Positions 1 to 27,822 are shown, counted from the first letter of the stretch. The stretch is DNA of 64,000 nucleotides from an uncultured delta proteobacterium (GCA_963706575.1 CAVPNL010000001.1:463208-527207), one strand, 5' to 3'. Translations and numbers: made by a program. Notes: a model not told the origin generated them from the sequence alone.

Positions 1-1896
1 CGCGCCTTCCTGGACCACTTTCACTGTGAGGGATACTGCTTCTTTGCTAAGCACCTGTCTGCCTGATTTGGGTTCCTCTGAAATTTTGAATTCAGGAATT
101 TCAATCTTACTATCCGGAATGCCGCCTATTTTTCCCTGCAGGTGGTTAACCGCCTCAACAGCAGCTGAAATTAATGCGGCATAATCATCCACGATTCGGG
201 TAACCATGCCGACATCTGCGGCTTCTTCAACCCCGAGCGGCCGGCCCAGACAAATCATTTCATGAAACAGAGCGGCACCCTGGGGCCATTTGCGGTAGGG
301 CACTACACAGCCGCCGATCCCCGGCAGGATCCCCAGCATGATTTCGGGGAACTGAAAGCTTGCGTTTTTCGTAGCGACTATCGCGTGACAGCGGATGGCC
401 ACTTCCAACCCGCCGCCAAGGGCAAATCCGTTGACGGCCGCCACCACGGGTCTTTGCATTTGATCCATATAAATCTGGACATTGGCGCAATCTCTGGCAT
501 ACTGGGCCGAAGCTCGGGCATCTCCGAGCATTTCCGGAAATTTGCCGATGTCAGCCCCTGCTGAAAAAGCGGCTGTTCCGTAACCGGTGATGACAAATCC
601 CTTGACCGCCGGGTCGACTTCGAATTCCTTGAAAACGGACAGGATTTCGTCTGTCAGCTCTTCGTTGAGGGCATTCATGGCCTGCGGACGGCGGATGGTA
701 ATCACCTTGACGCCGTCGATATCATCTACCAGGACGAAGCGCTTGAAATCCTGATATGTTCCAAGCGCTTGCTGCGGCATCGGAAATCCCGGTCGTTCTG
801 ATTGAAAGCGGTCCATGATCCGCTTGACTTCATCTTCCCCCAGTTCCCGCATCAGATCCAGCGGCCCTTTGCGAAACCCCAGGGCTACCTGACAACCGAA
901 GTTGAGATCGGCTTTGGTTCCGATCCCGCGGTCGATAATATCGAAAGACTGTGAGAACAGGATGCCCAGCAGGCGGTCACGGACGGCCGACTTTATGTCT
1001 TGCGGAACTTCCACCGGGCTGCCGGGGCGGTGCGTGAGCCAGCGATCCACCGACGCCAGAATGGAGGCGGGCAGGTAATGGGTGCCTTCTTCCATCTGCA
1101 GGCTGTTGGTTTCAATGATAATCGGATTTCCGTTGGTCATGTTCATGACAAAAAATGGTCCGGCAAAGACGAATTCTTCGGCGACTTTGTCAATCTGGCC
1201 GGCGGTTGCCTGATCCAGTAAGTAGGCGGATTCGTTGCACCAGTTGTCAAAGATGCGGTTCAGTATAAAACAGATGGCGTTGTCGGTAATGATGGGTGCT
1301 TTGCCGGTATTGGCAAAAAACCAGAACAGGTAATCCAGGGTCTCCTGGCTGCCTTTTTCCCAGGCGATGACCTCAACCGGAAGGCTTCTCCAGGCCGGCG
1401 CAAAAAAGTGGGTGATGGAGGTGCGCTGCGGGTTTTTCATATGGCAAAAGATTCTGTCAGCCGGGATTGAGGAGGTGTTTGAGGTGATGATGGTATCGGC
1501 ACTGACAATATTTTCAACGGTTTCAAAAATTTTTTGTTTCAGCGGAATGGATTCGGTGGCAGCTTCGATGACCAGCTGGCAATTTTTAATCTGCTGGTAG
1601 TCGGTGGTATAGACGATATTTTCGCGAACTGCGGCTGCTTTTTCGGGCTTCAGCTTCTTTTTGTCGATGGCCTTATCCGTGTATCCGGCAATACGCTGTT
1701 CCGCCAGTTGGAGCGGCTTCTCAACAACATCCACCAGATACAGCTTGCTGTTCGGAATGGCGCTTTTCAAATAATAACCGATATCCGGACCGATGGTGCC
1801 GGCGCCGATGACAGCGATTTCATCCGGCAGCGATCTTGAAGGCTCAATCAGCAAAGGGTTAAATGCCGTTTGATAGAGTTTTTTTTCAGCGTTCAT
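1..1896 (-). CDS. 3-hydroxyacyl-CoA dehydrogenase / enoyl-CoA hydratase fusion (IaaP-like); 3' end runs off the window
   Basis: Manually translated; missing from the ORF track because it is open at the edge. MNAEKKLYQ... AVIGAGTIG (Rossmann), VIEAATE, SNTSS, THFFAPA, then a crotonase domain (RRPQAMNALN, FSAGADI, VNGFALGGGLE). AAGGA RBS before the ATG at 1896. Confidence 0.9.
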   Translation of the reverse strand, partial: MNAEKKLYQTAFNPLLIEPSRSLPDEIAVIGAGTIGPDIGYYLKSAIPNSKLYLVDVVEKPLQLAEQRIAGYTDKAIDKKKLKPEKAAAVRENIVYTTDYQQIKNCQLVIEAATESIPLKQKIFETVENIVSADTIITSNTSSIPADRIFCHMKNPQRTSITHFFAPAWRSLPVEVIAWEKGSQETLDYLFWFFANTGKAPIITDNAICFILNRIFDNWCNESAYLLDQATAGQIDKVAEEFVFAGPFFVMNMTNGNPIIIETNSLQMEEGTHYLPASILASVDRWLTHRPGSPVEVPQDIKSAVRDRLLGILFSQSFDIIDRGIGTKADLNFGCQVALGFRKGPLDLMRELGEDEVKRIMDRFQSERPGFPMPQQALGTYQDFKRFVLVDDIDGVKVITIRRPQAMNALNEELTDEILSVFKEFEVDPAVKGFVITGYGTAAFSAGADIGKFPEMLGDARASAQYARDCANVQIYMDQMQRPVVAAVNGFALGGGLEVAIRCHAIVATKNASFQFPEIMLGILPGIGGCVVPYRKWPQGAALFHEMICLGRPLGVEEAADVGMVTRIVDDYAALISAAVEAVNHLQGKIGGIPDSKIEIPEFKISEEPKSGRQVLSKEAVSLTVKVVQEGA

Positions 1897-1990
1897 GGCG
1901 AGCATTCCTTTCCGGTAAAGTTGGGTTCAATTTATATCATTATTCGCAAAAATAAAGTAAAGAAACTGAAATAAAGCGCAAGATAATTTC

Positions 1991-3965: not shown

Positions 3966-5789
3966 GTGAGCAAGAGAAGATTATTACTGGGAAATGAAGC
4001 CATCGCGCGCGGGTTGATCGAAAGCGGATGTACCATTGCAACATCTTATCCGGGGACGCCGGCATCCGAGATTCTTGCCGCCGTGGCCTATTTTCAAAAC
4101 GAAGAATCGCTTTCCATGCATACCCAATGGGCGGTTAACGAAAAAGTCGCCTTCGAGATTGCCTATGCCGGGTGCCAGACCGGGCTGCGTGCCGCGGTCA
4201 GCATGAAGCAAGTCGGTTTGAATGTGGCTTCCGATCCGCTCATGAGTGCCGCTTATATGGGGATCAATGGCGGGTTTGTTTTGATCAGCGCCGATGATCC
4301 CGGACCCCACTCTTCACAAACTGAGCAGGACAGCCGGCTGATGGCCATGTTTGCCAAGATACCGGTGCTGGATCCGGATTCACCCCGTCAGGCCAAAGAA
4401 CTGATGGGGGTTGCGTATGAAATATCTGAATCCTTTAAAACCCCCGTGATGGTGCGGCCCACCACCCGGGTGTGCCATTCCAGGCAGGATATTTCGCTGG
4501 GCTCCATTCCGAAAAACAAACGCCGGGCGCATTTCGAAAAAAATCCGGCCCGCTGGGCTGCGACCCCTAAATTCCGACTGCAACTTCACAGGGAGTTGGA
4601 AGAAAAGCTGGCCGCCATTGCAAAGTATCGGCCGACAGCCCCCAAAAAGCTGAATCGCAAAGCCAAATCCGGCAAAGCAATTATTGCTTCGGGTGTGGCG
4701 GCCGCTCATACCAAAGACATTTTAAGAGAATTGAAAATCTGGTCAAAAATTCCTTTTTATCAGGTCATTCAACCGTTTCCGCTGCACAGCAAATTTATTG
4801 AGCATATTATCGCCAGCTATGAAGAGGCTCTGGTTATTGAAGAAACCATGGGCGTGATTGAGATGCAACTGGCCGACCGTTATCGCATCAAAGGCAAATT
4901 ATCGAATACGGTGCCAAGGGTTGGCGAACTTAGCCCTGAAAAGATAGAGGAAATTGTCAGTAAATTTGTCGGACTAAAATCCGAAGCGGTTACCATAAAA
5001 TCTATCCCTGGCAGACGCCCGACCCTGTGCCCCGGATGCCCGCATCGCGCCAGTTTTTTTGCCATAAAAAAAGCCGCTCCCAGAGGGATTTACACCAGCG
5101 ATATCGGCTGCTATACGCTGGGCCTCAATCTCGGAGCCGTCGATACGGTGCTCTGTATGGGCGCTGCCATCAGTCAGGCCGCCGGATTTTATCACGCCTA
5201 TAAAAATGAAGAAAAACGGCCGGACATTGTGGCCACCATCGGTGATTCAACTTTTTTCCATGCCGGCGTACCGGCTCTTATCGATGCGGTCGTCCAGAAT
5301 GTCGGCTTTGTGCTGGTGATCCTTGATAACCGCACCACTGCCATGACCGGCAATCAACCCACGCCGGCCACCGGCCATGGGGCCTGCGGCGAGTCCACTG
5401 AGACCGTTGATATCGAATCACTGGTTCGCGGATGCGGTGTTAAATTTATCCGGGAAAGCAATCCTTACGAACTCAAGGAGTTTACGGCTCTTCTTAAAAA
5501 GGCCGTTAAATACAGCCGCAAAAACGGACCCGCCGTGGTTATTTCAAGATATCCGTGCGTGCTGCACCGGGCCAGGCAGGGCGATACCGGGGAATATATA
5601 CCGGTCGAAGTGAGTGAAAAGTGCGACGGTTGCGGTTATTGCATCAAGCATTTTGAATGTCCGGCCCTGATCTATCATGATGACAAAGAAGAAAAACACG
5701 TCAGCATCGATCCGATTCTGTGCACTTCATGCGGCGTGTGTTTGAATGTCTGTCCCAAAGGGGCATTCGTTGAAAAAACTAGGGAGTAA
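3966..5789 (+). CDS. iorA: Indolepyruvate:ferredoxin oxidoreductase alpha subunit
   Basis: LLGNEAIARG, YPGTPASE, MKQVGLNVASD, DDPGPHSSQTEQD, LCPGCPHR, GDSTFFH (TPP) and two C-terminal 4Fe-4S motifs; GTG start. Confidence 0.92.
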   Translation: MSKRRLLLGNEAIARGLIESGCTIATSYPGTPASEILAAVAYFQNEESLSMHTQWAVNEKVAFEIAYAGCQTGLRAAVSMKQVGLNVASDPLMSAAYMGINGGFVLISADDPGPHSSQTEQDSRLMAMFAKIPVLDPDSPRQAKELMGVAYEISESFKTPVMVRPTTRVCHSRQDISLGSIPKNKRRAHFEKNPARWAATPKFRLQLHRELEEKLAAIAKYRPTAPKKLNRKAKSGKAIIASGVAAAHTKDILRELKIWSKIPFYQVIQPFPLHSKFIEHIIASYEEALVIEETMGVIEMQLADRYRIKGKLSNTVPRVGELSPEKIEEIVSKFVGLKSEAVTIKSIPGRRPTLCPGCPHRASFFAIKKAAPRGIYTSDIGCYTLGLNLGAVDTVLCMGAAISQAAGFYHAYKNEEKRPDIVATIGDSTFFHAGVPALIDAVVQNVGFVLVILDNRTTAMTGNQPTPATGHGACGESTETVDIESLVRGCGVKFIRESNPYELKEFTALLKKAVKYSRKNGPAVVISRYPCVLHRARQGDTGEYIPVEVSEKCDGCGYCIKHFECPALIYHDDKEEKHVSIDPILCTSCGVCLNVCPKGAFVEKTRE

Positions 5790-5872
5790 GCATTAAATAG
5801 TAAGCAGTAAGCACCATAGAGTAGGCAGCCGTAAATGCAAACCGGCAAACTGCTTACTGCCTATTGCTTACT
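5785..5872. repeat. Inverted heptamer tandem repeat (AGTAAGC / GCTTACT)
   Basis: agtaagcagtaagc ... tgcttactgcctattgcttact between iorA and iorB. Confidence 0.65.
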
Positions 5873-5888
5873 ATTATACGGGGGATAT

Positions 5889-6449
5889 ATGAGCAAGACA
5901 GTTAAACAGCAAATTCTGATCAGCGGAGTAGGCGGGCAGGGGGTTCTGTTTGTTACGGGCCTTCTGGCAGAAGCGGCCATCAGTAAAGGATTGGCGGTAT
6001 TTACCTCGGAAACTCACGGTATGGCTCAACGCGGAGGAACGGTTGTGTCCCATTTTAAGGTCGGCGATTTCTCGAGCCCTTTGATCCGGCCATTTAAGGC
6101 AGACGGGTTGCTGGTATTAAAGGACGAAAATATCGCCCAGCACGGGTCATTTCTAAGAAAGGGCGGCTGGGCGGTGGTTAATAGCGGTAATGATTTGAAA
6201 ATTGACAAAACATTAACGGCCAGCGGCATCGATGCGGACAAACTGGCCCAGGAAATCGCGAACCCGAAATCCGTTAATCTGATTATGCTGGGCTTTGCAC
6301 TGGCAAAGGCCGGCAAAAAAGGCGGGGGTCCAATCAATCTGTTCTGCACATTGACCGATATTAAGAAAGTTCTGCGCAAAAAATTCAGCAGCCGCAAGAA
6401 GCTGATAGATGCCTCCATTAAGGCCTTAGATACAGGCTATTATTTCTGA
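5889..6449 (+). CDS. iorB: Indolepyruvate:ferredoxin oxidoreductase beta subunit
   Basis: GVGGQG, SETHGMAQRGG; start moved to the ATG at 5889 behind a GGGGA RBS. Confidence 0.9.
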   Translation: MSKTVKQQILISGVGGQGVLFVTGLLAEAAISKGLAVFTSETHGMAQRGGTVVSHFKVGDFSSPLIRPFKADGLLVLKDENIAQHGSFLRKGGWAVVNSGNDLKIDKTLTASGIDADKLAQEIANPKSVNLIMLGFALAKAGKKGGGPINLFCTLTDIKKVLRKKFSSRKKLIDASIKALDTGYYF

Positions 6450-7702
6450 TTTTGATACTTCTTCTTGACAAATTCTAGTGATTCATCAATAGCGGTTAAT
6501 GTTAGATTCAAGTCTTCTTGTGTATGCCGATAACAGATATATGCGTGATGATAAGGCGTGAAGAAAAATCCCTTTCGAATCATCTGTGTATAAAAATCTT
6601 TTCGTTTACCTTTATATGATCCTGATTCATCTTTTTTAAAAGTAATATAAAACATGGGTGCAATACCAGTGAGTTCGGCGCCCACGTCATGATTTTCTAT
6701 GATCTCCTGAATTTTTTCCATGAACCACTCACCTTTTTTCCATATCTCCGCCAAGACATTATCTCGTTCTAAAATTTCAATGGTCTTAAGCGCTGCAATA
6801 AAGGCTTCGCTGTTGGGGAAAAAAGTTGAAGAAATGAAGAGCTTTTCTGCAGCCGCCATCATAATATCCTTTTTACCGGTGACAACCGAAATCGGATACC
6901 CGTTGGCAATAGCTTTCCCTAAAACCGAGATATCCGGATATACACCGTAAAGGGCTTGGGCGCCGCCGAGAGACAGTCTGAAACCCGTTCGGATTTCATC
7001 ATAGATCAGAACAGCTCCGTATCTGTCACTCAGGTTCCTAACCCCTTCAAGGAATCCAGATTTGGGTATTTGCATTTTTTGATGGTTGGGGTGGCCGAAT
7101 GGTGTCATTATGATAGCTGCAGTTTCGTCACCATGAGTAGCCAGAAGGTCTTCAAGTTGCTTAAGGTTATTGTACTCGAATTCAAACACGTCTTCATAGA
7201 ATTTTGATGGAATCCCACCTTTCATCTCGACACACCAGTCATGCCAGCCATGATAACCACATCGCATGACTTTAATCCGGTTCGTGTAGGCTCTTGCAAT
7301 TCGAATACTTGCCGTTGTTGCATCGGATCCGGTTTTTAAAAAAATACTCATTTCAGCGCAAGGGACAAGCTCAGCGATTTTTTTCGCCAAAACATTTTGA
7401 TATTTTTGCGTAAGCGAGAAGCAAAAACCCTTTTCTTTAATCTGTTTATAAACTGCCTCATCTACCTCTTTTTCACGGTAACCGAGGATAATGGGGCCGT
7501 AACCACACAGAAAATCAATAAATTCATTGCCGTCCACATCATAAAGCCGGCATCCTTTACCACTTTCAAGAAAAATGGGATATTCGCCAGCAATGAAATC
7601 GGTGGGTTTTCTAGCCCCCAGAACCCCACCAGCTATAAGCGCACATGCCTCTTCAAAAAGCTTTAGGCTATTTGATATATTGAGCTTGTCTGTCTCTTTC
7701 AT
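6440..7702 (-). CDS. Class III PLP aminotransferase, glutamate-1-semialdehyde-aminomutase-like; resembles 3-aminobutyryl-CoA aminotransferase (Kat)
   Basis: DVDGNEFIDF, KTGSDAT, GYHGWHDW, DEIRTGFR, LGKAIANG (PLP Lys). The Kat resemblance is from recall of motifs (GFCFSLTQ, SSTFFPNS, PYHHAYICYRH). Confidence 0.82.
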   Translation of the reverse strand: MKETDKLNISNSLKLFEEACALIAGGVLGARKPTDFIAGEYPIFLESGKGCRLYDVDGNEFIDFLCGYGPIILGYREKEVDEAVYKQIKEKGFCFSLTQKYQNVLAKKIAELVPCAEMSIFLKTGSDATTASIRIARAYTNRIKVMRCGYHGWHDWCVEMKGGIPSKFYEDVFEFEYNNLKQLEDLLATHGDETAAIIMTPFGHPNHQKMQIPKSGFLEGVRNLSDRYGAVLIYDEIRTGFRLSLGGAQALYGVYPDISVLGKAIANGYPISVVTGKKDIMMAAAEKLFISSTFFPNSEAFIAALKTIEILERDNVLAEIWKKGEWFMEKIQEIIENHDVGAELTGIAPMFYITFKKDESGSYKGKRKDFYTQMIRKGFFFTPYHHAYICYRHTQEDLNLTLTAIDESLEFVKKKYQNQK

Positions 7703-7718: not shown

Positions 7719-8867
7719 TTATTTATCTGTTTTAAACATGGAAGCTATTTTTTCAGTCTGGTGGATCCTTGCCCCTCTCTTGATAAATGCACTTAGAAAT
7801 TTGTCTGGGTCAATACAGCCCTCGGGAGCAACAACACCGGTTTCAGTCACATCACCTGCGTCCATCATTAAAGATGCTATTGATGCAGGAAGACCGGTTC
7901 CAGGAGCCATTCTTCCGACCATGTCAGCCGTATATGTGACTCTATTTCCATTTTTTTTACCATTGACGATTACCTTTAGACCTGAAGACTGCGGACCGTT
8001 GTCTCTGCCTTCGGGAATCGTTTCCCAGAGCTTAAGTGCAAGATCATAAGGTGTCACCTGAACACCCTTTATATCAATAGGCTCTGTTCCCAAAAAACCG
8101 GTATCTTTCTGTTCTTTAATCAACTCATCGACCCATAGTGGGATAAGGGCGCCTTTAATGATGACGTTTTTAACCCCTTTGATGTACTTCGGTAGGGTCA
8201 AAGGTTGGGGATGTCCCACATAACGGACATGACAGGTACCAAGGGGTTCAAGGAATTGTGCGGCCACAACCTCGGTGCCACCTTCCACATAAACCAGTTC
8301 CCCATTAATATATTGCGGGATTTTACCAAGGGTCATATGAAGACTATGATCCCAGGCAGCGCCTGCAAGTTCGGCAATACTGACCACCCAGTAAAGATAA
8401 ATGTCGTCAACCTCATCAAGACGGTCTGCATACCATTTTACCAATACATTATTGGTACCAGGATCTGACCCCATGCCGGTGAGGACAGTGATCCCAGCAT
8501 CCCTAGCCAAGTTATCTATTTCGGAGTTAAAAAGGATTTCAGTGCCCTCGTAATCATCACAAATATCGATATAATTCACCTTGGCCTCCACAGCAGCTTT
8601 TGCCACTGGTACCGCTGTTTTATAAAAAGGGCCTGCTGTGTTAATAACAACATTGACTTCCTTGAATGCATTAACCATAGATTCATGGTCATTGACATCC
8701 ATCTTGACTAGTTCGGTCTTTTCATTTTCACGCAATTTTGTTGAGAGTCTTTGAGGATCAGGGAAAAGGTCTGCTAAGATGACAGATGTAACTTTTTCCT
8801 GTTTGATTAAATCTCTAGCGACACCCTGGCCCATACCACCAACTCCACCAATGATTAATACACGCAT
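7719..8867 (-). CDS. Saccharopine dehydrogenase / lysine 6-dehydrogenase family NAD(P)-dependent oxidoreductase
   Basis: GGVGGMG Rossmann, NTAGPFY, YIDICDD, GMGSDPG, GHPQP, GVVAPE; GGAGG RBS. Confidence 0.85.
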   Translation of the reverse strand: MRVLIIGGVGGMGQGVARDLIKQEKVTSVILADLFPDPQRLSTKLRENEKTELVKMDVNDHESMVNAFKEVNVVINTAGPFYKTAVPVAKAAVEAKVNYIDICDDYEGTEILFNSEIDNLARDAGITVLTGMGSDPGTNNVLVKWYADRLDEVDDIYLYWVVSIAELAGAAWDHSLHMTLGKIPQYINGELVYVEGGTEVVAAQFLEPLGTCHVRYVGHPQPLTLPKYIKGVKNVIIKGALIPLWVDELIKEQKDTGFLGTEPIDIKGVQVTPYDLALKLWETIPEGRDNGPQSSGLKVIVNGKKNGNRVTYTADMVGRMAPGTGLPASIASLMMDAGDVTETGVVAPEGCIDPDKFLSAFIKRGARIHQTEKIASMFKTDK

Positions 8868-8933: not shown

Positions 8934-11732
8934 CTACTCTTTTCGTTCTTTATTCTTAATCGCTTCAAGGATCTTATCCGGAGTAATGGGGTAATCGTCA
9001 AAATAGACGCCCACGGCATTGGATACGGCGGCACTGTAAGCCTGAGCTGCCGACATTGCAATGGACATGGCCGCCTCTTTGGCGCCATATGGTCCTTTGG
9101 GATCATTGGATTCCACAATAATGGAATTGATTTTGGGCATGTCCACAGCAAGCGGAACCTTGTACTCCAGCATAGTGGGGTTCATCACCCGCCCCTTGTC
9201 ATCCCAGAAATGATATTCGGTCAGCATGCCTCCCTGGCCGCCCATGGCGACCGATCCCTGGAACTGGCCTTCCAAGACCATGGGATTTAAGGCGAATCCC
9301 ACATCCTGGGCTGCAGTAACTTCCAAAACATTCACCTGACCGGTTTCAGGATCAACTTCGACCTCGACGATGGTGGTCCCATAGGAAAAGGCTTCGCAAA
9401 GCTGCCCAAAGGGATTTTTAACCCACTCACGCTTCAAATCCGGTTTCGGCCAATACCCGCCTTCGCCAACAACTCCTCTGCCTTGGATCAAGCCCATACG
9501 AATGACTTTTTTCAGGGGGATGCTTTTGTCCTGGGTTCCCTTAACATAAATCATCCGGTCCCTGGCCACCAGATCATCCTTGTTGGCCTCAAGGGCATCG
9601 GCGGCGATGTCAAACAGTTTATCCCGAGCGTTTTGAGCGGCAATCTGTACCGCATGACCGCCCACGAAGGTCGAAACCTGGGAATAGGCACCCGGGTCCG
9701 ATGGGGTCAATTCGGTATCGGCGGTGACCAGCTGGATGTCTTCGGGCCTCATCCCCAGCTCTTCTGCCGCTATTTGGACCAGCATATTGTCATTGCCCTG
9801 CCCATTATCCACAACACCGGAAATCACCGTTGCCGCGCCGTCTTCGTTGAGCTTGATAATTGCCTGAGATCCCCCTCGTATCCCCATGGGGAAACCCGTC
9901 TGCACGGAATTACAGCCAATACCGATCCCGTGATACGGCGGCAGCTTGCTGTATTTTTTGTCCCAGCCGGCTTTATCCGCTGCCTTTGCAATGGTTTCCT
10001 TCATGGCGCAGCTGCCGACATACGAACCGGTGCATGTGGTATCACCGACTTCCCGGGCGTTGCGCATCCGCATGGTCACCGGATCGATGTTCAAATGTTC
10101 GGCAATCATATCCAATTGGGTGTCTACACCGCAGGCAAATGACCGGCCGTGGACACGGATCATGCCGCGGATGGGCTTGTTGGTGTATATGCGGTAACCG
10201 TTGTAGCGGACATTCTCCATCCGATAGGCCTGTTCCATAGACAAAAAGGGCACACTGGTGGCAATGGGGCCGGTGCTGCTGTAAGCTCCCCCGTCCATGT
10301 AACAGGTGATGTCCCGGGCCAAAACCCGGCCTTCTTTATCCACACCGGTTTTGATCGTGGTGATCATGGCGTGGCCCTGACGGGTGGAAACCGTGTTTTC
10401 TTCACGAGTGTAAACAATCTTAACCGGCCGTTTGGTCTTTTGAGCCAGAAGCGCACAGATATAGTCGACGGGAGATATTTCCGATCGGCCGCCGAAGGCA
10501 CCGCCGATGGCTATTTTGCGGACCCTGACCTTGTGCAGTGGGATTCCCAGAGCATTGGACAGGGGCTTTGACTTCATGTGCGGTCCGGCATTGGGGCACC
10601 AGATGTCCAGGTTGCCGTCGGCGTCGAATTTGGCCACAACCGCATGGGGCTCAGCCTGAAAATAGGATTCCTCGGCGGCCACAAAGGTATCTTCCCTAAC
10701 GTAAAAAGACTCGGAAAAGCCTTTGTCGACATCCCCCACATCAATTGGTACGTGAATGTTGATGTTTTGGGGAAAATCTTCATGAATTAACGGCGCATCC
10801 GGGGCGATGGCGGACATAGGATCGAAAACCGCCGGCAGTTCCTCGTAGGTCACCCGGATCAGGTCGATGGCTTCAAGGGCTGTATTCTCGTCAACGGCTG
10901 CCACGGCAGCGACTTCTTCACCGAAATAGCGCACCTTTTCAATAGGCAAAAACTGCTGATCCAGCGTGTAGCGGAACACGCCCCATTTGCTGCCACTGGT
11001 GTCTTTGCCCGTTACTACCGCTTTGACACCAGGCAGTTTTTCCGCAGCCGAAGTATCGATATCAACTATGCGTGCATGGGCATGGGGGCTTCGAAGTATT
11101 TTCCCCACCAGCATTCGGGGGAAGGCCAAATCCGCCGTGAATTTAGCTTCACCAGTCACTTTGGCCCGCGTATCGACTCTTGGCATGCTCTTTCCGACGA
11201 TATCGTATTGGCTGGCAGTTCCGGTTTTGTGAAGCGCTGAAACCGGAGGTGTTGGCTCAGAAGGTTCTTCTCCTGTGGCCGCCTCTTTCACAGCTTCAAC
11301 GATCTTCTGATACCCTGTACAGCGGCAGATATTGCCGCTGAGTGCTTTGCGGATACTGTCTTCATCAGGGATGCTATCAGCAAGGGCAAACCCTTTTGCA
11401 GCCATGACCATACCTGAGGCGCAGAATCCGCACTGAATCGCTCCATGTCGGATAAATGCCTCCTGGACCGGATCCAGGCTTTCTCCCTTGGCCAAACCCT
11501 CCACTGTGAGGATGCGCTTTCTCGAAGCTTCAAGAGCTAAGGTTAGACAGGCACGGACAGGCACATCATCCATAAGCACCGTGCACGACCCGCAGACACC
11601 CTCTCCGCAGCCTTCTTTGGCCCCTGTCAGGTCCAATTGCTCCCGGAGGACCTCCAGCAATGTCCAGTGAGGCTCAACATCCAGTTCGTGGATTTCATCA
11701 TTTACATTCAGGGTCAGGGGAACGCTCTTCAT
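8934..11732 (-). CDS. Xanthine oxidase family Mo enzyme: 2x[2Fe-2S] domain fused to molybdopterin-binding subunit (HcrC+HcrA-like)
   Basis: GCGEGVCGSC and QCGFC...CRCTGY, then GGAFGGR, GMIRVHG, GQG, GAKEAAMS; second ATG (11732) has an AAGGA RBS. Confidence 0.9.
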   Translation of the reverse strand: MKSVPLTLNVNDEIHELDVEPHWTLLEVLREQLDLTGAKEGCGEGVCGSCTVLMDDVPVRACLTLALEASRKRILTVEGLAKGESLDPVQEAFIRHGAIQCGFCASGMVMAAKGFALADSIPDEDSIRKALSGNICRCTGYQKIVEAVKEAATGEEPSEPTPPVSALHKTGTASQYDIVGKSMPRVDTRAKVTGEAKFTADLAFPRMLVGKILRSPHAHARIVDIDTSAAEKLPGVKAVVTGKDTSGSKWGVFRYTLDQQFLPIEKVRYFGEEVAAVAAVDENTALEAIDLIRVTYEELPAVFDPMSAIAPDAPLIHEDFPQNINIHVPIDVGDVDKGFSESFYVREDTFVAAEESYFQAEPHAVVAKFDADGNLDIWCPNAGPHMKSKPLSNALGIPLHKVRVRKIAIGGAFGGRSEISPVDYICALLAQKTKRPVKIVYTREENTVSTRQGHAMITTIKTGVDKEGRVLARDITCYMDGGAYSSTGPIATSVPFLSMEQAYRMENVRYNGYRIYTNKPIRGMIRVHGRSFACGVDTQLDMIAEHLNIDPVTMRMRNAREVGDTTCTGSYVGSCAMKETIAKAADKAGWDKKYSKLPPYHGIGIGCNSVQTGFPMGIRGGSQAIIKLNEDGAATVISGVVDNGQGNDNMLVQIAAEELGMRPEDIQLVTADTELTPSDPGAYSQVSTFVGGHAVQIAAQNARDKLFDIAADALEANKDDLVARDRMIYVKGTQDKSIPLKKVIRMGLIQGRGVVGEGGYWPKPDLKREWVKNPFGQLCEAFSYGTTIVEVEVDPETGQVNVLEVTAAQDVGFALNPMVLEGQFQGSVAMGGQGGMLTEYHFWDDKGRVMNPTMLEYKVPLAVDMPKINSIIVESNDPKGPYGAKEAAMSIAMSAAQAYSAAVSNAVGVYFDDYPITPDKILEAIKNKERKE

Positions 11733-11757
11733 TGGAAATCCTTCCATATTTCTTTTC

Positions 11758-12051
11758 TAGAAGTGGTTTCAAAACCTCAGATCAGGTTCAAGGGCTAACA
11801 GTGCCTAAAGTGAGCTAAAATGAGCTAAAGTGACTAAAGTTTTGGTGTCGCTTTGCTCCGTCGTTTATATAGATGATAGAATTCCTTAAACTTTAGTCAC
11901 TTTAGTGCACTTCCAACTTTAGCTCACTTATTTATTGTGAGCATTTATCGGAGGACTGTGCTGCACCTTAATTTAAAAAATCAGATGCGAATCCCGCTTA
12001 GCGGGGCAACGCAGCCATTGGGTCTTAGATGGGGTTTTGAAAACACTTCTA
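11758..12051. mobile_element. MITE-like non-autonomous element, copy 1 (contains a nested CTAAA repeat element)
   Basis: Termini TAGAAGTGGTTTCAAAAC ... GTTTTGAAAACACTTCTA (inverted, 1 mismatch); last ~115 bp nearly identical to 24079-24193. Confidence 0.75.
11801..11930. repeat. Inverted tandem repeat (GAGCTAAAAT / TTTAGCTC family)
   Basis: gtgcctaaagtgagctaaaatgagctaaagtgactaaagt ... actttagtcactttag...actttagctcactt; related element at 28271-28427. Confidence 0.75.
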
Positions 12052-13050
12052 TGCATCTATGTTTCTTAATGCTTCTTTAAGCGCCCGTCGAACAAGGACC
12101 GATACCATTTGACTGCGGTAATCCACATTGGCGCCGACATTATCGACCGCAAAAGTCGAAGCTATGTCCATGCACTGACTGGCGACTTCGGCTATGACTT
12201 CTGCATCCGTTATGCTGATTCCTTCAAGAAGTCGGGCGACCTGATTGAGCAATAAGGGGGCTCTGCTCATGGAGCCGACCGCAATTCTGGCTGTCTTGAC
12301 AATTGCATCGTTTGTCTGGATAAAAACACCCACCGAAGCGATCGGGTAGTCAATGGCGGATCGATAGGCCAATCTTTTATAGGCGCTATAGGCACCCGGG
12401 TCTGATAGCGGGACATGAATGTAAGTCAGAATTTCTCCGGGTTCCAGGGTAAGCGGGTGTTCTCCCACAGTCGAGTAGAGGTCCACAAGGGGAATCCGTT
12501 TTTCACCCTGTACACCGGCAATGGTTATCTCTGCATCCAGTGCCAGCAGGGCCGTTGCGCCGTCCGATTGAAATGTGGCATGGCAGCGGTCTGAGTCCGC
12601 CCGGGCATAGCAGGTTTGCCCCCCGGCCTTGTGGCAGGGCGCTTTTCCTAAGCGCCATGCTGCAGACTGGTTGTAAAACAGGCATCTGGCGTCTTGGCAG
12701 AGGTTGCCGCCAATGGTCCCGCTGTGGTGCTGGATGGACGGGGCACCGATGGCTTCCATGGCCTGGGATAAAGCAGATAAATGTTTTTTAACGTCACTTG
12801 ATGCCGCCACGGCGGCAAGAGATGTCCGTGCACCGATGGTAAGCTCGCCATTTTGCCGGGTGATGCCGTCCAACTCATCCAAGCTCTTGAGACTCAAAAG
12901 ATAGGCCGGCTGGCAGAGCCGCTTTTTCATCCGTACCAGCAGATCGGTGCCGCCGCCGAGGATGTGGCACGCCTCGCCGTGGGTGTTTAAAAGATCCAGT
13001 GCTTTCTCAAGCGTTTCCGGTTCCAGGTACTTAAAACGGGGTAAACGCAA
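12049..13050 (-). CDS. FAD-binding subunit of Mo enzyme with [4Fe-4S] insertion (HcrB-like)
   Basis: MRLPRFKYLEP, GGGTDL, GTIGGNL, C-x15-C-x7-C-x8-C insertion, RSAIDYP; TTG start after GGAGGA. Confidence 0.9.
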   Translation of the reverse strand: MRLPRFKYLEPETLEKALDLLNTHGEACHILGGGTDLLVRMKKRLCQPAYLLSLKSLDELDGITRQNGELTIGARTSLAAVAASSDVKKHLSALSQAMEAIGAPSIQHHSGTIGGNLCQDARCLFYNQSAAWRLGKAPCHKAGGQTCYARADSDRCHATFQSDGATALLALDAEITIAGVQGEKRIPLVDLYSTVGEHPLTLEPGEILTYIHVPLSDPGAYSAYKRLAYRSAIDYPIASVGVFIQTNDAIVKTARIAVGSMSRAPLLLNQVARLLEGISITDAEVIAEVASQCMDIASTFAVDNVGANVDYRSQMVSVLVRRALKEALRNIDA

Positions 13051-13119: not shown

Positions 13120-14268
13120 TTATAGCTTGCCCAGTACTTCCCTAGAGATAACGATCTTCTCAACCTCCTTGGTTCCTTCATAAATCTCTAAAACCTTGGC
13201 AGCGCGGTAAAATCGTTCGATATCGTAATCGTTAAAGTAGCCGTAACCGCCGTGCAGCTGCAATGCTTCATCCACGACTTCAACCGCTATATGGCAGGCA
13301 TACATTTTGGCCATGGCAGTCAATTTCGTATCCGGTTTGCCCTGATCGAGCAACCAGGCGGATTTGTAAGTCATGTTGCGGGCGGTTTCAACCTTAGTTG
13401 CCATTTCGGCAATTTTAAACTGGGTGCCCTGAAATGCGGCCAGGGGTCGACCGAATTGCTGTCTGCCCTTTACATGTTTAACTGCCATATCCAGAGCGCC
13501 CTGGGCAAGTCCGACGCCGTGAGCTGCAACATATGCCCGGGAGTGATCGAAAAATTTCATCAGCTGGATAAACCCGTTTCCTTCCACACCGATCAAATTT
13601 TCCCGGGGGACGCGGCAATTGTTAAAATAAATGGCTGCTGTATCTGACGCCCGTAGGCCCATCTTGCCATGCATCGGATCGGCCTTATACCCTTCGCGAT
13701 CGGTCTCCACCAGAATGATGCTGTGGCGGCCGGTTTTGGATTTCGCATCCGGGTCGGTAAGGCAGTAAACCAGCATATGGGTTCCAACGGTACCGTTTCC
13801 GATCATCACTTTGCTGCCGTTGATGATATAGTCATCACCGTCTTTAACGGCAGAGGTCGTAGCCGCGGCTGTATCACTGCCGGCATCCGGCTCGGTAATA
13901 GCAAACCCTAAAATGCCATCACCGGTAAAAAGTTGGGGAAGGTACTTCTTTTTTTGCTCTTCTGTGCCGAAAAGAATCAGTTCTTCAGCTCCGAATGACA
14001 CCGAGCAAAGCTCCTGCGCGATGCCCGGGTCCACTTTCCAGAACTCTTCCAGCACCAGGGCCTGCTCGAAAAAACCGAGTCCGGGTCCGCCGTATTCTTC
14101 AGGGATGAAAAGTCCGATCAGATCCAGTTCGCGCGCTTTTTTCAGGATTTCTGCCGGAAACGTTTCATTGATGTCATATTCAAGCGCAACAGCCGGAAAT
14201 TCACCCACTGCAAATTCGCGGGCTGCTCTTTGAATGTACTGCTGTTCTTTGGTCAGATCATAGTCCAT
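13120..14268 (-). CDS. Acyl-CoA dehydrogenase
   Basis: FAITEPDAGSD, INGSK, KMGLRASDT, RQQFGRP, LQLHGGYGY, IYEGT (catalytic Glu). Confidence 0.95.
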   Translation of the reverse strand: MDYDLTKEQQYIQRAAREFAVGEFPAVALEYDINETFPAEILKKARELDLIGLFIPEEYGGPGLGFFEQALVLEEFWKVDPGIAQELCSVSFGAEELILFGTEEQKKKYLPQLFTGDGILGFAITEPDAGSDTAAATTSAVKDGDDYIINGSKVMIGNGTVGTHMLVYCLTDPDAKSKTGRHSIILVETDREGYKADPMHGKMGLRASDTAAIYFNNCRVPRENLIGVEGNGFIQLMKFFDHSRAYVAAHGVGLAQGALDMAVKHVKGRQQFGRPLAAFQGTQFKIAEMATKVETARNMTYKSAWLLDQGKPDTKLTAMAKMYACHIAVEVVDEALQLHGGYGYFNDYDIERFYRAAKVLEIYEGTKEVEKIVISREVLGKL

Positions 14269-14497: not shown

Positions 14498-16060
14498 TCA
14501 CAACGGGATGTTACCGTGTCGTTTTTTGATCTCAGGTCGCTGTTTATTGCGCAGCATCCTCAGGGCTTTGATTAACTCGGGTCGCGTTTCTTTAGGCTTG
14601 ATGACGCTATCGACCAGCATATTGGAAGCTGCGTGGTAGGGATTCGAATATTTATAATCATATTCCTCGATTTTCTGCTGACGGAGTTCATCGGGATTTT
14701 CCGCAGCCTGAATTTCTTTGCGGAATATCAAATTCACGGCGGCTGTTGTATCCAGCACAACCAGTTGAGCAATCGGCCAGGCTAGCATCAGATCAACTCC
14801 CATGCCGACACAGCACATCCCCATCACGGCGCCGCCGTATTCCTTGCGCAGGGCCAGCGTGATCTTGGGCACGGTGGCTTCTGAATAGGCATAGAGCATT
14901 TTAGCGCCATGACGGATAATTCCGGCATGCTCTTGGGCCACCCCGGGAAAATAGCCGGGCACATCCACAAAATTAATCAGGGGGATATTGAACGCGTCGC
15001 AAAATCGAATGAAACGGGCGGCTTTGTCGGACGCATCGACATCCAGACACCCGGCCTTTATTCGCGGCTGATTGGCAACGATTCCGACGACATGGCCGTC
15101 CATACGGGCAAAGCCGACGATAATATTCAGGGCGTAACGGCGCAGGACTTCAAAAAAGGTTGCCTGATCGACCACTCGCTCGATGACCTGATGCATGTCA
15201 TAGGATTTTTTAAAGTCTGCGGGGACGATTTCCTTAAGCTTTTTGTCGATTCGTTCAGGATCATCACCGGTATTCACGATCGGTGGATTTTCACTATTAT
15301 TCGATGGCAGATAACTGAGCAGTTTTTTTATGAGTTCCAAACACTCTTCATCACTGTCGGCAACGAAATGCGCGGTTCCGGTGATCTCGCTGTGGACTTT
15401 GGCACCGCCGAGCTCTTCCAGACTGATATCTTCACCGGTCACTGATTTGATGATCCCGGGCCCGGTAATCACCATGTGGCTTTTGCCTTTTACCATAACG
15501 ATAAAATCGGTCAAGGCCGGCGAATAAACGGCCACCCCCGCACTGGATCCCATCATGCCGGTAATTTGAGGAATTAGGCCTGAAGCCGCCGTATTGCGAT
15601 AAAACATGCCGGCAACGCCTTTGGATGCGAAAAAGCCTTCATGCAATCGGCCGCCTCCGGAGTCATTTAAAGCCACCAGGGGCGCTTTAACTTTTATGGC
15701 CTCATCCATAATACGGCAGATTTTTTGCCCGTGGATGGTGCCGACGGACCCGCCGAGAACGGTAACGTCCTGGGCATAAGCAAATACCAGACGGCCTTCT
15801 ATGTTGCCATAACCGGTAACCACACCGTCGCCAGGTACCTTCTTTTGCTGCATACCAAAAGCAACGGACTGACTTTCGGCCAATTTGTTGACCTCCACAA
15901 AACTGCCCGGATCGAAAAGCAGGTTAAGGCGTTCTCTGGCCGTCAATTTGCCTCTTTCGTGCTGGCGGTCGACCATCTTTTGACCGCCGCCGATTTCGGC
16001 CTGTTGCTCAAGAGCCGCCAGCCTTTCCAATTCACTCTGATGTGTTTTGGATTTCGTCAT
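14498..16060 (-). CDS. Acyl-CoA carboxyltransferase (PccB / MmdA-type subunit)
   Basis: GKLTARER, PGDGVVTG, DSGGGR, RFCDAFNIP, VDVPG, GIIRHGAK, KRHGNIPL. Confidence 0.92.
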   Translation of the reverse strand: MTKSKTHQSELERLAALEQQAEIGGGQKMVDRQHERGKLTARERLNLLFDPGSFVEVNKLAESQSVAFGMQQKKVPGDGVVTGYGNIEGRLVFAYAQDVTVLGGSVGTIHGQKICRIMDEAIKVKAPLVALNDSGGGRLHEGFFASKGVAGMFYRNTAASGLIPQITGMMGSSAGVAVYSPALTDFIVMVKGKSHMVITGPGIIKSVTGEDISLEELGGAKVHSEITGTAHFVADSDEECLELIKKLLSYLPSNNSENPPIVNTGDDPERIDKKLKEIVPADFKKSYDMHQVIERVVDQATFFEVLRRYALNIIVGFARMDGHVVGIVANQPRIKAGCLDVDASDKAARFIRFCDAFNIPLINFVDVPGYFPGVAQEHAGIIRHGAKMLYAYSEATVPKITLALRKEYGGAVMGMCCVGMGVDLMLAWPIAQLVVLDTTAAVNLIFRKEIQAAENPDELRQQKIEEYDYKYSNPYHAASNMLVDSVIKPKETRPELIKALRMLRNKQRPEIKKRHGNIPL

Positions 16061-25734: not shown

Positions 25735-25829
25735 AAAACCTGCCGAATCCACACCTTTTGTATCGCCGGCTCTGAAACAAATGGCCTCACAATCTTTGAT
25801 CCCCAACTCAAATGCCAATGGAGAGGACA

Positions 25830-27020
25830 ATGGATTTTTTCAATAACCTTACAGTGGTTTCTCTGGAGCAGGCGACGGTGCTGCCGTATTTAACCTACCG
25901 CCTGGCTCAGGATGGAATGAATATCATTCGCCTGGAACATCCGATTTATGGTGATCCCAATCGATTCATCGGTGAAAATGTTCTCAATGAAGAACGAATG
26001 AATTCATACTTCTTGTGCATCAATGCCGGTAAAAAAGCGCTGACACTGAATTTGGCAGAGGATGAGGGGCAGCAAATTTTTCATTCTTTGATTAAAGAAC
26101 TCGAAGTGGATATTTTTGCGACCAATCAGCTTCCTAAAAATTATCAGAAGCTGGGAATTGATTACGACAGTTTAAAGTCTCTCAAACCGGATATCATCTG
26201 GCTGGGAGTGACCGGGTTTGGCCCTGACAGCAATGAAGCCGCTTACGACCCGATATTGCAGGCCCGATCGGGTTTAATGGAATTGACCGGTGAAGCCGAA
26301 GGCGATCCCCAGGTTATGGGCATCCCCCTGCCGGATATGGGCACCAGTGAGCACGCATATGGAATGGTAATGAAAGCCCTTTACAAACGCCAGTTGACCG
26401 CTAAGGGCAGTTGCATCAATATGGCCATGTTTGAATCAACGGTATCATGGCTTACGGTACCCATCACCTTGACTGACAGTTTTGGAAAAAGTATCAGCCG
26501 CAGGGGAAACACCCATGAATTCTTTGCACCGGTTTCGGTTTACCAGACTAAAAACGGATTTATCTATCTGGCGGTCGGCAACGACCGTCAGTGGAAAACA
26601 ATGGTTTCCCAGGAAATTTTTAAGAGTCTTGATCAGCCGGACTATGAAAGAAATGAGGGCCGCATAAAGGATGTGAAGAATTTGAATCAGGCGATTAATG
26701 CGATTACGCGCCACCACACAACTGAAGATCTGATTGAATTGTTCACCGCCATCACCGTTCCCATCAGTAAAATTAAACTAGTCGATGAAGTTATTCAAGA
26801 TCCGCTGGTCAAACGACGACTGCTGCATGCCCAGGATTCAGCCACCGGTACCCGCATAACTCTGGCTCCTCCGCCGAATATGACACCGTTTTTGGAACAA
26901 TCCGACCGTCGGCTTTCGTTTCCCCCGCGATTCGGTGAACAAAACAGCGAAATATACGGCAAGAAATTGGGATATTCTGAGGATGATCTTAGCCGCTTGA
27001 AAGAAAAGGGCGTTATATGA
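25830..27020 (+). CDS. Class III (CaiB/BaiF) CoA transferase (IaaL-like role inferred)
   Basis: NAGKKALTLNL, LGIDY, GFG, YDPILQARSGLM, LPDMG (catalytic Asp), PPRFGEQ; GAGAGGA RBS. Confidence 0.9.
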   Translation: MDFFNNLTVVSLEQATVLPYLTYRLAQDGMNIIRLEHPIYGDPNRFIGENVLNEERMNSYFLCINAGKKALTLNLAEDEGQQIFHSLIKELEVDIFATNQLPKNYQKLGIDYDSLKSLKPDIIWLGVTGFGPDSNEAAYDPILQARSGLMELTGEAEGDPQVMGIPLPDMGTSEHAYGMVMKALYKRQLTAKGSCINMAMFESTVSWLTVPITLTDSFGKSISRRGNTHEFFAPVSVYQTKNGFIYLAVGNDRQWKTMVSQEIFKSLDQPDYERNEGRIKDVKNLNQAINAITRHHTTEDLIELFTAITVPISKIKLVDEVIQDPLVKRRLLHAQDSATGTRITLAPPPNMTPFLEQSDRRLSFPPRFGEQNSEIYGKKLGYSEDDLSRLKEKGVI

Positions 27021-27114
27021 ATAGCGCTTAAAGATTGCAGGATTCAAGGAATTTAGGAAACCGAGGGTTTATCTTTTTAAGGGTTATAATTCCCAGAAAT
27101 TTTAAGGTAACATT

Positions 27115-27822
27115 ATGAGAAAAAGGGCAGAGTTAAATGACTTGGATCTTGGGCCGCTACAGGCGTTTCAGGAGCGAAAATCTTTAGGGGAGCATGTTTT
27201 TGAAAGCCTGAAGCATTCGATTGTCAGGGGAAAAATTTCTTCGGGTGAATGGCTGGTTGAAAGCCATATTGCTGAAACTTTGGGAATCAGCCGAACCCCT
27301 GTAAGAGAGGCGATTCACAAACTTGAACGTGAAGGGCTCATTGAGCGCCAGCCCCGGGGGGGGTTCACGGTTCTCGGTCTTGAGCGCGATGATATCGAAG
27401 AGACCTTCGGTATTCGCAGCGTACTTGAAGGGTATGCCGCCCGGCTGGCCGCTGTCAAGCATGATGCGCAAGAACTGGAGCAATTGGAGAACAAAATTGA
27501 TGAATTTCAAAATGCGCTGGATCAAAAAAAAATGAATTTGCTGCCGGGAATCAATACCGAATTTCATGATTTGCTCTACAGCCTGAGTAAAAGCCCTAAA
27601 TTGATCAATATGATTAATGGCCTGCACGATCAGATTTACCGCTACCGGCAAATGATCCTTAAAGAAAAAAAATTTGCATCGACCAGCAACCTGGATCACA
27701 AAAAGATGTTGAAATATATTCGCAGGCAGGATGCTGAAGGTGCGGAGCGCCTGGTCCGGGATCACATCTTAAGAGGGAAGGAAATGGTATTAAAGGAATA
27801 TGACCGGCAACGGCAGGATTAG
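27115..27822 (+). CDS. GntR family transcriptional regulator with FCD domain
   Basis: LGISRTPVREA wHTH, RSVLEG, NTEFH, C-terminal H..M...I...D.E.A...H. Confidence 0.93.
   Translation: MRKRAELNDLDLGPLQAFQERKSLGEHVFESLKHSIVRGKISSGEWLVESHIAETLGISRTPVREAIHKLEREGLIERQPRGGFTVLGLERDDIEETFGIRSVLEGYAARLAAVKHDAQELEQLENKIDEFQNALDQKKMNLLPGINTEFHDLLYSLSKSPKLINMINGLHDQIYRYRQMILKEKKFASTSNLDHKKMLKYIRRQDAEGAERLVRDHILRGKEMVLKEYDRQRQD

What the first reader, a model, noticed from the sequence alone, without database searches (positions are those of the whole stretch)
8934..13050. 4-hydroxybenzoyl-CoA-reductase-like Mo enzyme with the catalytic Glu replaced by Met
Seen: the FAD subunit has a C-x15-C-x7-C-x8-C insertion and the Fe-S and Mo subunits are fused. 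Active-site loops read GGAFGGR, GMIRVHG and GAKEAAMS, whereas the second Mo enzyme in this window has GGGFGSK, AMRGYG and GAKGIGEP. Met (codon 9066-9068) aligns with the Glu. Established: that Glu is the near-invariant catalytic residue of the xanthine oxidase family. The extra [4Fe-4S] cluster and RGHG-type loop are features of the reductive HcrABC enzyme, though some oxidative members also carry the cluster. Inference: a reductase with novel chemistry, for example the long-postulated deaminating aminobenzoyl-CoA reductase or a dehydroxylase for a substituted intermediate.
Basis: partly seen in the sequence, partly recalled or inferred. Interest (0 to 1): 0.78.

Follow-up and report, generated by a model that had tools for sequence, protein, structure and literature searches.

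The report
Glutamate-less molybdenum enzyme in auxin breakdown
A widespread, untested molybdenum enzyme of anaerobic bacteria has lost the catalytic glutamate that its family normally needs, and across genomes it stands in for the usual water-adding and oxidising step of oxygen-free indoleacetate (auxin) breakdown, which hints at a new way of removing an amino group from an aromatic ring.

Summary
Observation confirmed. Met894 aligns without gaps to HcrA Glu726. A second canonical residue, HcrA Gln214, is Ala387. Met is invariant in 120 of 120 close homologs; a sister group has Leu (119 of 119). This is a conserved Glu-less subfamily of HcrABC-like enzymes, not a private mutation. The FeS-Mo fusion is incidental (5 of 120).

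Of 70 genomes carrying it, 69 carry anaerobic indoleacetate (iaa) genes. Among 83 iaa-positive genomes it is nearly mutually exclusive with a hydratase/3-hydroxyacyl-CoA dehydrogenase fusion: 68 Mo only, 10 fusion only, 1 both, 4 neither. Here it follows a decarboxylase and an acyl-CoA dehydrogenase, and precedes an imine-reductase-like gene and a Kat-like beta-aminoacyl-CoA transaminase.

Best reading (0.45): it acts on 2-aminocinnamoyl-CoA, removes the ring amino group and leads on to benzoylacetyl-CoA. No activity is shown. The scan noted this operon twice on other DNA, as a nitrogen-handling part of the iaa pathway.

The parts
8934..11747 (-). Fused 2x[2Fe-2S] + molybdenum (MCD-type) subunit, HcrC+HcrA-like, Glu-less subfamily
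   Evidence: TIGR03194 676 bits, below cut-off 994.55
9066..9068 (-). Met894 at the catalytic-Glu position (HcrA Glu726)
   Evidence: Met in 120 of 120
10587..10589 (-). Ala387 at the position of HcrA Gln214
   Evidence: Ala 76, Gly 44 of 120
10152..10154 (-). Val532 in place of the Gly of the R-G-x-G loop
   Evidence: V, I, T or M in 120 of 120
12049..13050 (-). FAD subunit, HcrB-like, with a four-Cys [4Fe-4S]-type insertion (12583-12684)
   Evidence: motif in 67 of 69 relatives, the 2 misses being ORFs cut at locus starts
7719..8867 (-). Saccharopine/carboxyspermidine-dehydrogenase-like NAD(P) oxidoreductase (imine-reductase-like by inference)
6440..7702 (-). Class III PLP aminotransferase, Kat-like (beta-aminoacyl-CoA transaminase); Lys263 in the GKAIANG motif
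13120..14268 (-). Acyl-CoA dehydrogenase with YEG motif; orthologs at 71-80% in six other iaa clusters where no IaaF-type gene was seen
14498..16060 (-). Carboxyltransferase/decarboxylase (MmdA-like), paired with that dehydrogenase; proposed 2-aminobenzylmalonyl-CoA decarboxylase
1..1905 (-). 3-hydroxyacyl-CoA dehydrogenase/enoyl-CoA hydratase fusion (IaaP-like; that name is recalled), running off the window start; the alternative to the Mo enzyme in other genomes
25812..41150 (+). iaa-type upper pathway: CoA transferase, GntR, B12 mutase pair, hydantoinase pair, CoA ligase, thiolase and the Glu-keeping Mo hydroxylase (IaaIJK-like, 37170-41150)
3966..6449 (+). Indolepyruvate:ferredoxin oxidoreductase alpha and beta (entry from tryptophan)
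   Evidence: TIGR03336 above cut-off

Best explanation
A Mo-FeS-flavin enzyme of the anaerobic indoleacetate/tryptophan pathway of Desulfobacterota that acts on 2-aminocinnamoyl-CoA and makes the usual hydratase/dehydrogenase unnecessary. SHOWN: the active-site changes, the iaa linkage, the near mutual exclusivity with the fusion, the operon order and the Kat-like neighbour. INFERRED: the decarboxylase and acyl-CoA dehydrogenase make 2-aminocinnamoyl-CoA. Reduced Mo then cleaves the aryl C-N bond by HcrA-like chemistry, with the thioester stabilising a radical anion through the vinyl group. Either it stops at cinnamoyl-CoA plus ammonia (about 0.15), or the re-oxidised Mo delivers N or O to the beta-carbon, giving a beta-enamino or beta-keto thioester (about 0.3). 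The SDH-like enzyme would reduce the enamine/imine, and the Kat-like enzyme would turn beta-phenylalanyl-CoA into benzoylacetyl-CoA plus glutamate. The pair is optional because the enamine can hydrolyse by itself. Thiolase then gives benzoyl-CoA. No water-activating base is needed if the group moved is nitrogen, which would explain losing both Glu and Gln.
For: 69 of 70 carrier genomes have iaa genes; in the class sample none of the 123 genomes without the iaa hydantoinase carries it. Among 83 iaa-positive genomes: 68 Mo only, 10 fusion only, 1 both, 4 neither, with switches inside families f106 and f55. In G438 the fusion sits divergent from the CoA transferase, the slot the Mo operon fills in many other clusters. 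No ortholog of the fusion was found in 100 other loci around the Mo genes; only 25-31% crotonase-family hits in 2. Two carriers of 1.5-1.8 Mb have a single 3-hydroxyacyl-CoA dehydrogenase, beside a crotonase-family gene. The aminotransferase's top Atlas cluster is 3-aminobutyryl-CoA aminotransferase (0.99), and Kat converts the beta-phenylalanyl thioester to the benzoylacetyl thioester (PMC3149608). SDH and Kat orthologs occur in the same 18 of 21 class carriers. All 21 have the Oah ring hydrolase, one as a partial match. The HcrA pocket residues R248, E250, H360 and Y521 are kept.
Against: No assay and no cofactor data. Both known reductive members compared here keep the Glu. The window's own genome has both routes, and four iaa genomes show neither (G325, G354, G363, G406). 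Kin are not independent, and two inherited cluster types could mimic replacement. The 66% identity cut for the fusion was set after seeing the data: carrier G057 has a 53% paralog elsewhere. Kat was not found in 3 of 21 class carriers or in 3 of 5 small genomes. The cluster-type thiolase was not found in those 5, and Oah passed its cut-off in only 3 of them. Large genomes hold many other hydratases and dehydrogenases that could serve either scheme.
Confidence: 0.45

Rival explanations
1. One reading: a deaminating 2-aminobenzoyl-CoA reductase acting after thiolysis, while unrelated housekeeping enzymes do the side-chain beta-oxidation.
For: Closest solved relative is HcrABC, with the extra Cys cluster. 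The iaa pathway ends in 2-aminobenzoyl-CoA (PMC9613470) and a reductase for it is postulated (PMC4539516). Oah is present in 21 of 21 class carriers.
Against: It does not explain why carriers lack the hydratase/dehydrogenase fusion (68 of 69 iaa-positive carriers). Five iaa-positive, Oah-positive genomes have no such enzyme although they should make 2-aminobenzoyl-CoA. It gives SDH and Kat no substrate.
Confidence: 0.2
2. An oxidative beta-hydroxylase: it adds water-derived O to the beta-carbon of 2-aminocinnamoyl-CoA and removes a hydride, giving 2-aminobenzoylacetyl-CoA. This is a one-for-one replacement of hydratase plus dehydrogenase, with the amino group staying on the ring.
For: Simplest account of the mutual exclusivity. 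A xanthine-oxidase-family enzyme, MhyADH, was reported to take an enone to a diketone (PMC3044224), though a later paper questions its hydratase step (PMC4052635, listing only).
Against: Hydroxylation in this family needs the Glu to activate the Mo-bound oxygen (PMC10420851), and it is absent throughout the clade. SDH and Kat remain unexplained.
Confidence: 0.17
3. A side-branch or degenerate role: it salvages lactam or quinolinone by-products that ortho-amino thioesters form spontaneously, or the Mo site is inactive and the complex serves electron transfer or substrate binding.
For: Three Mo-proximal positions are changed, and part of the Leu group also lacks the R of R-x-H-G. The FAD subunit diverges faster than its Mo subunit: 49% against 75% identity, compared with 60% against 71% for the IaaIJK-like pair, in 24 loci. 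The window has a second hydantoinase pair.
Against: Pocket and cofactor-binding motifs (GG.FG, GQG, EGQ, G.K) are nearly invariant at 73-99% overall identity. A salvage enzyme would not exclude the main beta-oxidation gene.
Confidence: 0.13
4. An ordinary hydroxylase or 4-hydroxybenzoyl-CoA reductase with a private mutation or sequencing error.
For: Databases label homologs '4-hydroxybenzoyl-CoA reductase alpha'.
Against: Met in 120 of 120 and Leu in 119 of 119. The score is below the HcrA family cut-off. The same genome has three further HcrA-like genes that keep the Glu, each near a four-Cys FAD subunit.
Confidence: 0.02

Closest known systems
4-hydroxybenzoyl-CoA reductase HcrABC, Thauera aromatica (PDB 1RM6/1SB3)
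   Same: Best sequence hit (E 1.3e-138) and best fold hit (TM 0.87, 36% identity); four-Cys insertion in the FAD subunit; R248, E250, H360, Y521 equivalents and the GAKE motif kept.
   Different: Glu726 is Met or Leu, Gln214 is Ala/Gly/Ser, Gly359 is a side-chain residue, Ser523 is Gln690; scores below the TIGR03194 and TIGR03195 cut-offs; lies in iaa clusters.
Urolithin C 9-OH dehydroxylase UcdCFO (Ucdh), Enterocloster bolteae
   Same: [quoted passage not shown]
   Different: Keeps the conserved Glu741; removes OH; not compared by sequence here.
iaa pathway of Aromatoleum aromaticum / A. evansii (iaaA-R)
   Same: Same set of upper-pathway genes; the clusters' acyl-CoA dehydrogenase (one member inspected) has the IaaF-specific GGG motif (against PMC8360864).
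   Different: Described route continues from 2-aminocinnamoyl-CoA by beta-oxidation to 2-aminobenzoyl-CoA. The passages read name no second Mo enzyme, SDH-like or Kat-like gene. The window uses a decarboxylase plus YEG dehydrogenase; no IaaF ortholog was found in its genome (best 38%).
Kat, 3-aminobutyryl-CoA aminotransferase of Ca. Cloacamonas acidaminovorans (for the neighbour 6440-7702)
   Same: Top Atlas cluster, score 0.99; HemL-like class III enzyme; Kat needs a thioester and accepts the beta-phenylalanyl thioester.
   Different: No direct alignment to Kat could be run; Kat works in lysine fermentation.
MhyADH of Alicycliphilus denitrificans
   Same: Xanthine-oxidase-family enzyme reported to take an alpha,beta-unsaturated carbonyl to the beta-dicarbonyl.
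   Different: Acts on free enones; hydratase step disputed; its active-site Glu was not checked here.

Membership tests
Xanthine oxidase family (Mo hydroxylase fold) | Hammerhead plus two Mo-cofactor-binding domains, 2x[2Fe-2S] and FAD subunits | tested here: met
   Pfam above cut-offs; TM 0.87 to 1RM6
Xanthine oxidase family (Mo hydroxylase fold) | Catalytic Glu near the C-terminus (HcrA E726) | tested here: not met
   Met894; Met 120 of 120, Leu 119 of 119; Glu in 130 of 149 more distant representatives
Xanthine oxidase family (Mo hydroxylase fold) | Gln at the HcrA Q214 position (its contact with the apical oxo is recalled) | tested here: not met
   Ala387; Ala, Gly or Ser in the whole clade
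Xanthine oxidase family (Mo hydroxylase fold) | Bound Mo-pyranopterin with a sulfido ligand | not testable with these tools
   Binding motifs are kept; a MobA-like transferase, a molybdopterin-binding gene and YqeC lie in the window but could serve the second Mo enzyme
4-hydroxybenzoyl-CoA reductase HcrABC | Scores above the curated cut-offs of TIGR03194, TIGR03195, TIGR03193 | tested here: not met
   676 vs 994.55; 255 vs 404.55; 148 vs 257.8 bits
4-hydroxybenzoyl-CoA reductase HcrABC | Extra four-Cys cluster insertion in the FAD subunit | tested here: met
   C123/C139/C147/C156; 67 of 69 relatives; 0 of 27 IaaIJK-type FAD subunits
4-hydroxybenzoyl-CoA reductase HcrABC | Reductive dehydroxylation of 4-hydroxybenzoyl-CoA | not testable with these tools
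   Needs an assay; gene context points elsewhere
Anaerobic indoleacetate (iaa) pathway gene set | Co-occurrence with the hydantoinase pair, B12 mutase, CoA transferase, IaaF-type dehydrogenase and a Glu-keeping Mo hydroxylase | tested here: met
   69 of 70 carriers have the hydantoinase or mutase ortholog; GGG motif in the one cluster dehydrogenase inspected
Kat beta-aminoacyl-CoA transaminases (neighbour gene) | Sequence kinship with Kat and activity on beta-amino thioesters | tested here: inconclusive
   Top Atlas cluster at 0.99 is a lead; no alignment or assay

The most novel reading that the evidence does not exclude
A molybdenum 'amino-shifting' enzyme. 2-Aminocinnamoyl-CoA and beta-aminocinnamoyl-CoA are isomers. 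One Mo site could cleave the aryl C-N bond reductively and re-oxidise itself by aminating (or hydroxylating) the side-chain beta-carbon. That redox-neutral cycle would recall pyrogallol transhydroxylase but with nitrogen. It would remove the ring amine and replace two beta-oxidation steps at once, with the SDH-like and Kat-like enzymes capturing the nitrogen as glutamate.
Probability: 0.2. Interest if true: 0.93.

Novelty: new variant of a known kind. Interest (0 to 1): 0.7.

Why it matters
The catalytic glutamate is treated as essential in the xanthine oxidase family. Here a large, highly conserved subfamily lacks it, together with the conserved Gln. It was found in 50 of 301 sampled genomes of the phylum, and hits were also named as Anaerolineae and Spirochaetes. 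No xanthine-oxidase-family enzyme that cleaves an aryl C-N bond turned up in my searches, and how strict anaerobes remove the ortho-amino group in tryptophan, indole and indoleacetate breakdown is open. The comparison names a substrate that can be synthesised, 2-aminocinnamoyl-CoA, and three alternative products that one LC-MS assay can tell apart. It also corrects a common database label ('4-hydroxybenzoyl-CoA reductase').

Tried and rejected
GAKE Glu in the catalytic position: rejected, because HcrA and many paralogs have both Glu residues.

Met as a metal ligand: unlikely, because Leu replaces it in the sister group.

A CO-dehydrogenase-like Cys: part of the Leu group has Y-R-C-H-G-R, but the Cys is not conserved and is absent from the Met group; the likeness to CoxL is recalled.

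Fusion as a meaningful trait: rejected.

A general benzoyl-CoA pathway role: only 21 of 49 Oah-positive genomes carry the enzyme.

Ring dearomatisation of 2-aminobenzoyl-CoA with SDH and Kat downstream: fits Kat's regiochemistry but not the exclusivity, and looks thermodynamically too hard (own judgement).

The best Mo hits in G325 and G354 proved to be Glu-keeping paralogs.

BamB: the own genome has 18 AOR-family matches, none assigned.

The promoter/terminator scan was at chance level.

RNA-library contigs from mangrove and estuary runs cover parts of the operon, but no silent control was laid, so expression is not claimed.

Three papers were not held: Ebenau-Jehle 2012 and a Mo-enzyme review; the HcrA structure paper was seen only as a citation. 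PMC9765128, PMC10107677, PMC4207700 and PMC2988823 gave nothing relevant (passages). No supplements were read; those of the iaa papers may discuss these genes.
Full report
OBSERVATION. The ORF at 8934-11747 (-) is a 937-residue fusion of two [2Fe-2S] domains and a molybdenum subunit. Its best solved relative is HcrA, by sequence (E 1.3e-138) and by fold (AF2 model of the Mo part, pLDDT 77, TM 0.87). It scores below the curated Hcr cut-offs. Met894 (codon 9068-9066) aligns without gaps to HcrA Glu726 and to the Glu of four other solved members. The nearby Glu891 equals HcrA Glu723. Numbering read shows further changes: Gln214 to Ala387, Gly359 to Val532, Ser523 to Gln690. Arg248, Glu250, His360 and Tyr521 are kept. 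The FAD subunit has the four-Cys insertion. The Glu's role in activating the Mo-bound oxygen is stated in PMC10420851 (passages); the Gln's contact with the apical oxo is recalled.

CONSERVATION. All 120 listed homologs (73-99% identity) have Met, with Ala (76) or Gly (44) at 387. Among 149 distant representatives (one 325-residue fragment of 150 dropped), 130 keep Glu. The three nearest (Leu, Met, Ile) group with the Met proteins at FastTree support 0.999, midpoint-rooted. A search from the Leu protein gave 119 further listed hits, all Leu with Ala or Ser at 387, some named Anaerolineae or Spirochaetes. This is one Glu-less, Gln-less clade. Scattered non-Glu residues occur in 16 other representatives, so the Glu is near-invariant rather than universal. 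Fusion occurs in only 5 of 120 homologs.

CONTEXT. In 81 loci (80 fetched plus the window; many cut by contig ends) the recurring neighbours were as follows: the four-Cys FAD subunit (69), an SDH-like gene (42), a class III aminotransferase (41), CoA ligase (27), a second FAD subunit of a Glu-keeping Mo enzyme (27), a hydantoinase pair (24 and 20), thiolase (18), a VOC protein (18), B12 mutase (12) and CoA transferase (12), plus ETF, TrpB2 and IOR. My short labels for these clusters rest on similarity to window genes scanned, or on recall. This is the anaerobic indoleacetate (iaa) gene set. One cluster dehydrogenase inspected has the GGG motif that PMC8360864 gives for IaaF (I read part 1 of that paper, part 1 of its Discussion, and passages). 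Leu-type members lie in the same contexts (20 regions). The window itself holds IOR, the upper iaa cluster and a Glu-keeping IaaIJK-like hydroxylase.

GENOME-WIDE PATTERN. In a class sample of 151 genomes the enzyme was found in 21, single copy. All 21 have the iaa hydantoinase (28 of 151 overall), 20 have the mutase and all 21 have Oah, one partial (49 of 151). SDH and Kat orthologs occur in the same 18 of the 21; one further genome has a 62% aminotransferase in another setting. In a phylum sample of 301 the enzyme was found in 50. Of these, 32 have the hydantoinase, and 17 of the other 18 have the mutase (run on 30 chosen genomes).

THE DECISIVE RESULT concerns the 3-hydroxyacyl-CoA dehydrogenase/enoyl-CoA hydratase fusion at window 1-1905 (the name IaaP is recalled). 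Orthologs at 66-70% occur in all 7 iaa-positive class genomes lacking the Mo enzyme. Among the 21 carriers only the own genome has one, plus a 53% paralog on another contig of G057. In the phylum sample the three orthologs at 68-69% lie in iaa clusters of non-carriers; five paralogs at 51-63% are in genomes without the iaa mutase. Pooled over 83 iaa-positive genomes: 68 Mo only, 10 fusion only, 1 both, 4 neither. The Fisher p of 4e-9 overstates, since kin are not independent. Still, the fusion-only genomes span six families, and two families contain both states. Limits: the genomes are mostly draft assemblies, the identity cut was chosen afterwards, only 3-4 candidates per genome were scored in the phylum searches, and iaa genomes with a divergent hydantoinase and neither gene could have been missed.

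OPERON LOGIC. No IaaF ortholog was found in the own genome (best 38%; 92% complete). Directly upstream of the FAD gene lie a carboxyltransferase-type decarboxylase and a YEG dehydrogenase. Their orthologs (71-80%) form a pair in six other carriers' iaa clusters where no IaaF-type gene was seen. By inference they make 2-aminocinnamoyl-CoA in two steps, and the Mo genes come next. Downstream, the aminotransferase's top Atlas cluster is 3-aminobutyryl-CoA aminotransferase (0.99). Kat needs a thioester and converts the beta-phenylalanyl to the benzoylacetyl thioester (PMC3149608, parts 1-2 of 6 read). The SDH-like protein is a distant relative of carboxyspermidine dehydrogenase (E 1e-9), a C=N oxidoreductase. 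By tblastn SDH and Kat occurred together in 41 of 80 loci, SDH alone in 3 at locus ends, and Kat alone in none.

MECHANISM (inferred). The enzyme most likely takes 2-aminocinnamoyl-CoA. Without the Glu, base-assisted hydroxylation is hard to run, while the Hcr-like pocket and extra cluster suit reductive cleavage of a ring substituent conjugated to a thioester. Early removal of the ortho-amine would also avoid lactam formation (general chemistry). Plain deamination to cinnamoyl-CoA would still need a hydratase and dehydrogenase, so it explains the exclusivity poorly. Coupling deamination to beta-amination or beta-hydroxylation explains four things: the exclusivity, the beta-specific transaminase, the optional imine reductase and the missing base. 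A rough estimate from recalled formation energies makes the net reaction to benzoylacetyl-CoA plus ammonia exergonic by some tens of kJ/mol; this was not computed with a tool. The FAD subunit diverges faster than its partner, which weakly fits a reduced need for outside electrons.

AGAINST. HcrA and UcdO keep the Glu. Kat, the cluster thiolase and Oah are not found in all carriers. The own genome has both routes, and four genomes show neither. Odds: nitrogen-removing action on 2-aminocinnamoyl-CoA 0.45 (coupled about 0.3, plain about 0.15); 2-aminobenzoyl-CoA reductase 0.2; beta-hydroxylase 0.17; salvage or degenerate site 0.13; ordinary enzyme 0.02.

KNOWN WORK. Searches found no description of this subfamily, of a Glu-less member of the family, or of an enzyme for 2-aminocinnamoyl-CoA beyond IaaF. 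The library lacks most subscription papers, and Ebenau-Jehle 2012 was not held; Schuhle 2016 was seen only as a citation. PMC12771579 (passages) lists 4-HBCR, Ucdh, a urate reducer and an aryl C-S cleaving enzyme as reductive members. Two earlier notes of this scan read the same operon on other DNA as a nitrogen-handling part of the iaa pathway. They agree with my reading but are not independent evidence; as shown to me they did not mention the active-site loss, the exclusivity or Kat.

VERDICT. A real, conserved new variant of the HcrABC type. It works like Hcr in architecture, but it is not a member of that family by cut-off or by catalytic residues. Interest 0.7; if the amino shift holds, 0.93.

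Noticed in passing
window 11750-12050: A 300-base non-coding gap separates the FAD gene from the FeS-Mo gene. Its ends recur at high depth in unrelated contigs, with joints that skip it, which suggests a small repeated mobile element inserted in the operon. A similar repeat lies near 14340-14420.
   Followed up: partly
window 13120-16060; L129, L134, L136, L139, L140, L141: A carboxyltransferase-type decarboxylase plus YEG acyl-CoA dehydrogenase appears to replace IaaF and its ETF in several iaa clusters: a second, undescribed pathway variant.
   Followed up: partly
window 41474-52239; L085: A second hydantoinase pair with its own CoA ligase, VOC protein and ABC transporter, 66-83% identical to a block in G045. 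It may reopen lactam by-products or take up a related indole compound.
   Followed up: no
G000:C1:116270, 261937, 279731: Three further HcrA-like genes that keep the Glu, each near a four-Cys FAD subunit. The one at 261937 has Met at the Gln position and falls in the sister group of the Glu-less clade.
   Followed up: partly
P0159, P0193, P0197, P0155, P0144, P0161: Other distant Mo subunits also lack the Glu (Met or Ser) outside this clade, so the loss has arisen more than once.
   Followed up: no
P0123 group: Part of the Leu group has Y-R-C-H-G-R in the loop where aerobic CO dehydrogenase carries its copper-binding Cys (recalled); other members have Ser or Ala there and lack the Arg.
   Followed up: partly
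L142 (G123:C2:29000-48900): An SDH-like (53%) and Kat-like (62-65%) pair beside a CoA ligase and a different Mo enzyme, in a genome without iaa genes: the pair may serve another amino-acyl-CoA pathway.
   Followed up: no
G000 whole genome: 18 matches to the tungsten AOR family and 12 to xanthine-oxidase-family large subunits, three of them pieces of one split gene: an unusually large set of Mo/W enzymes.
   Followed up: no
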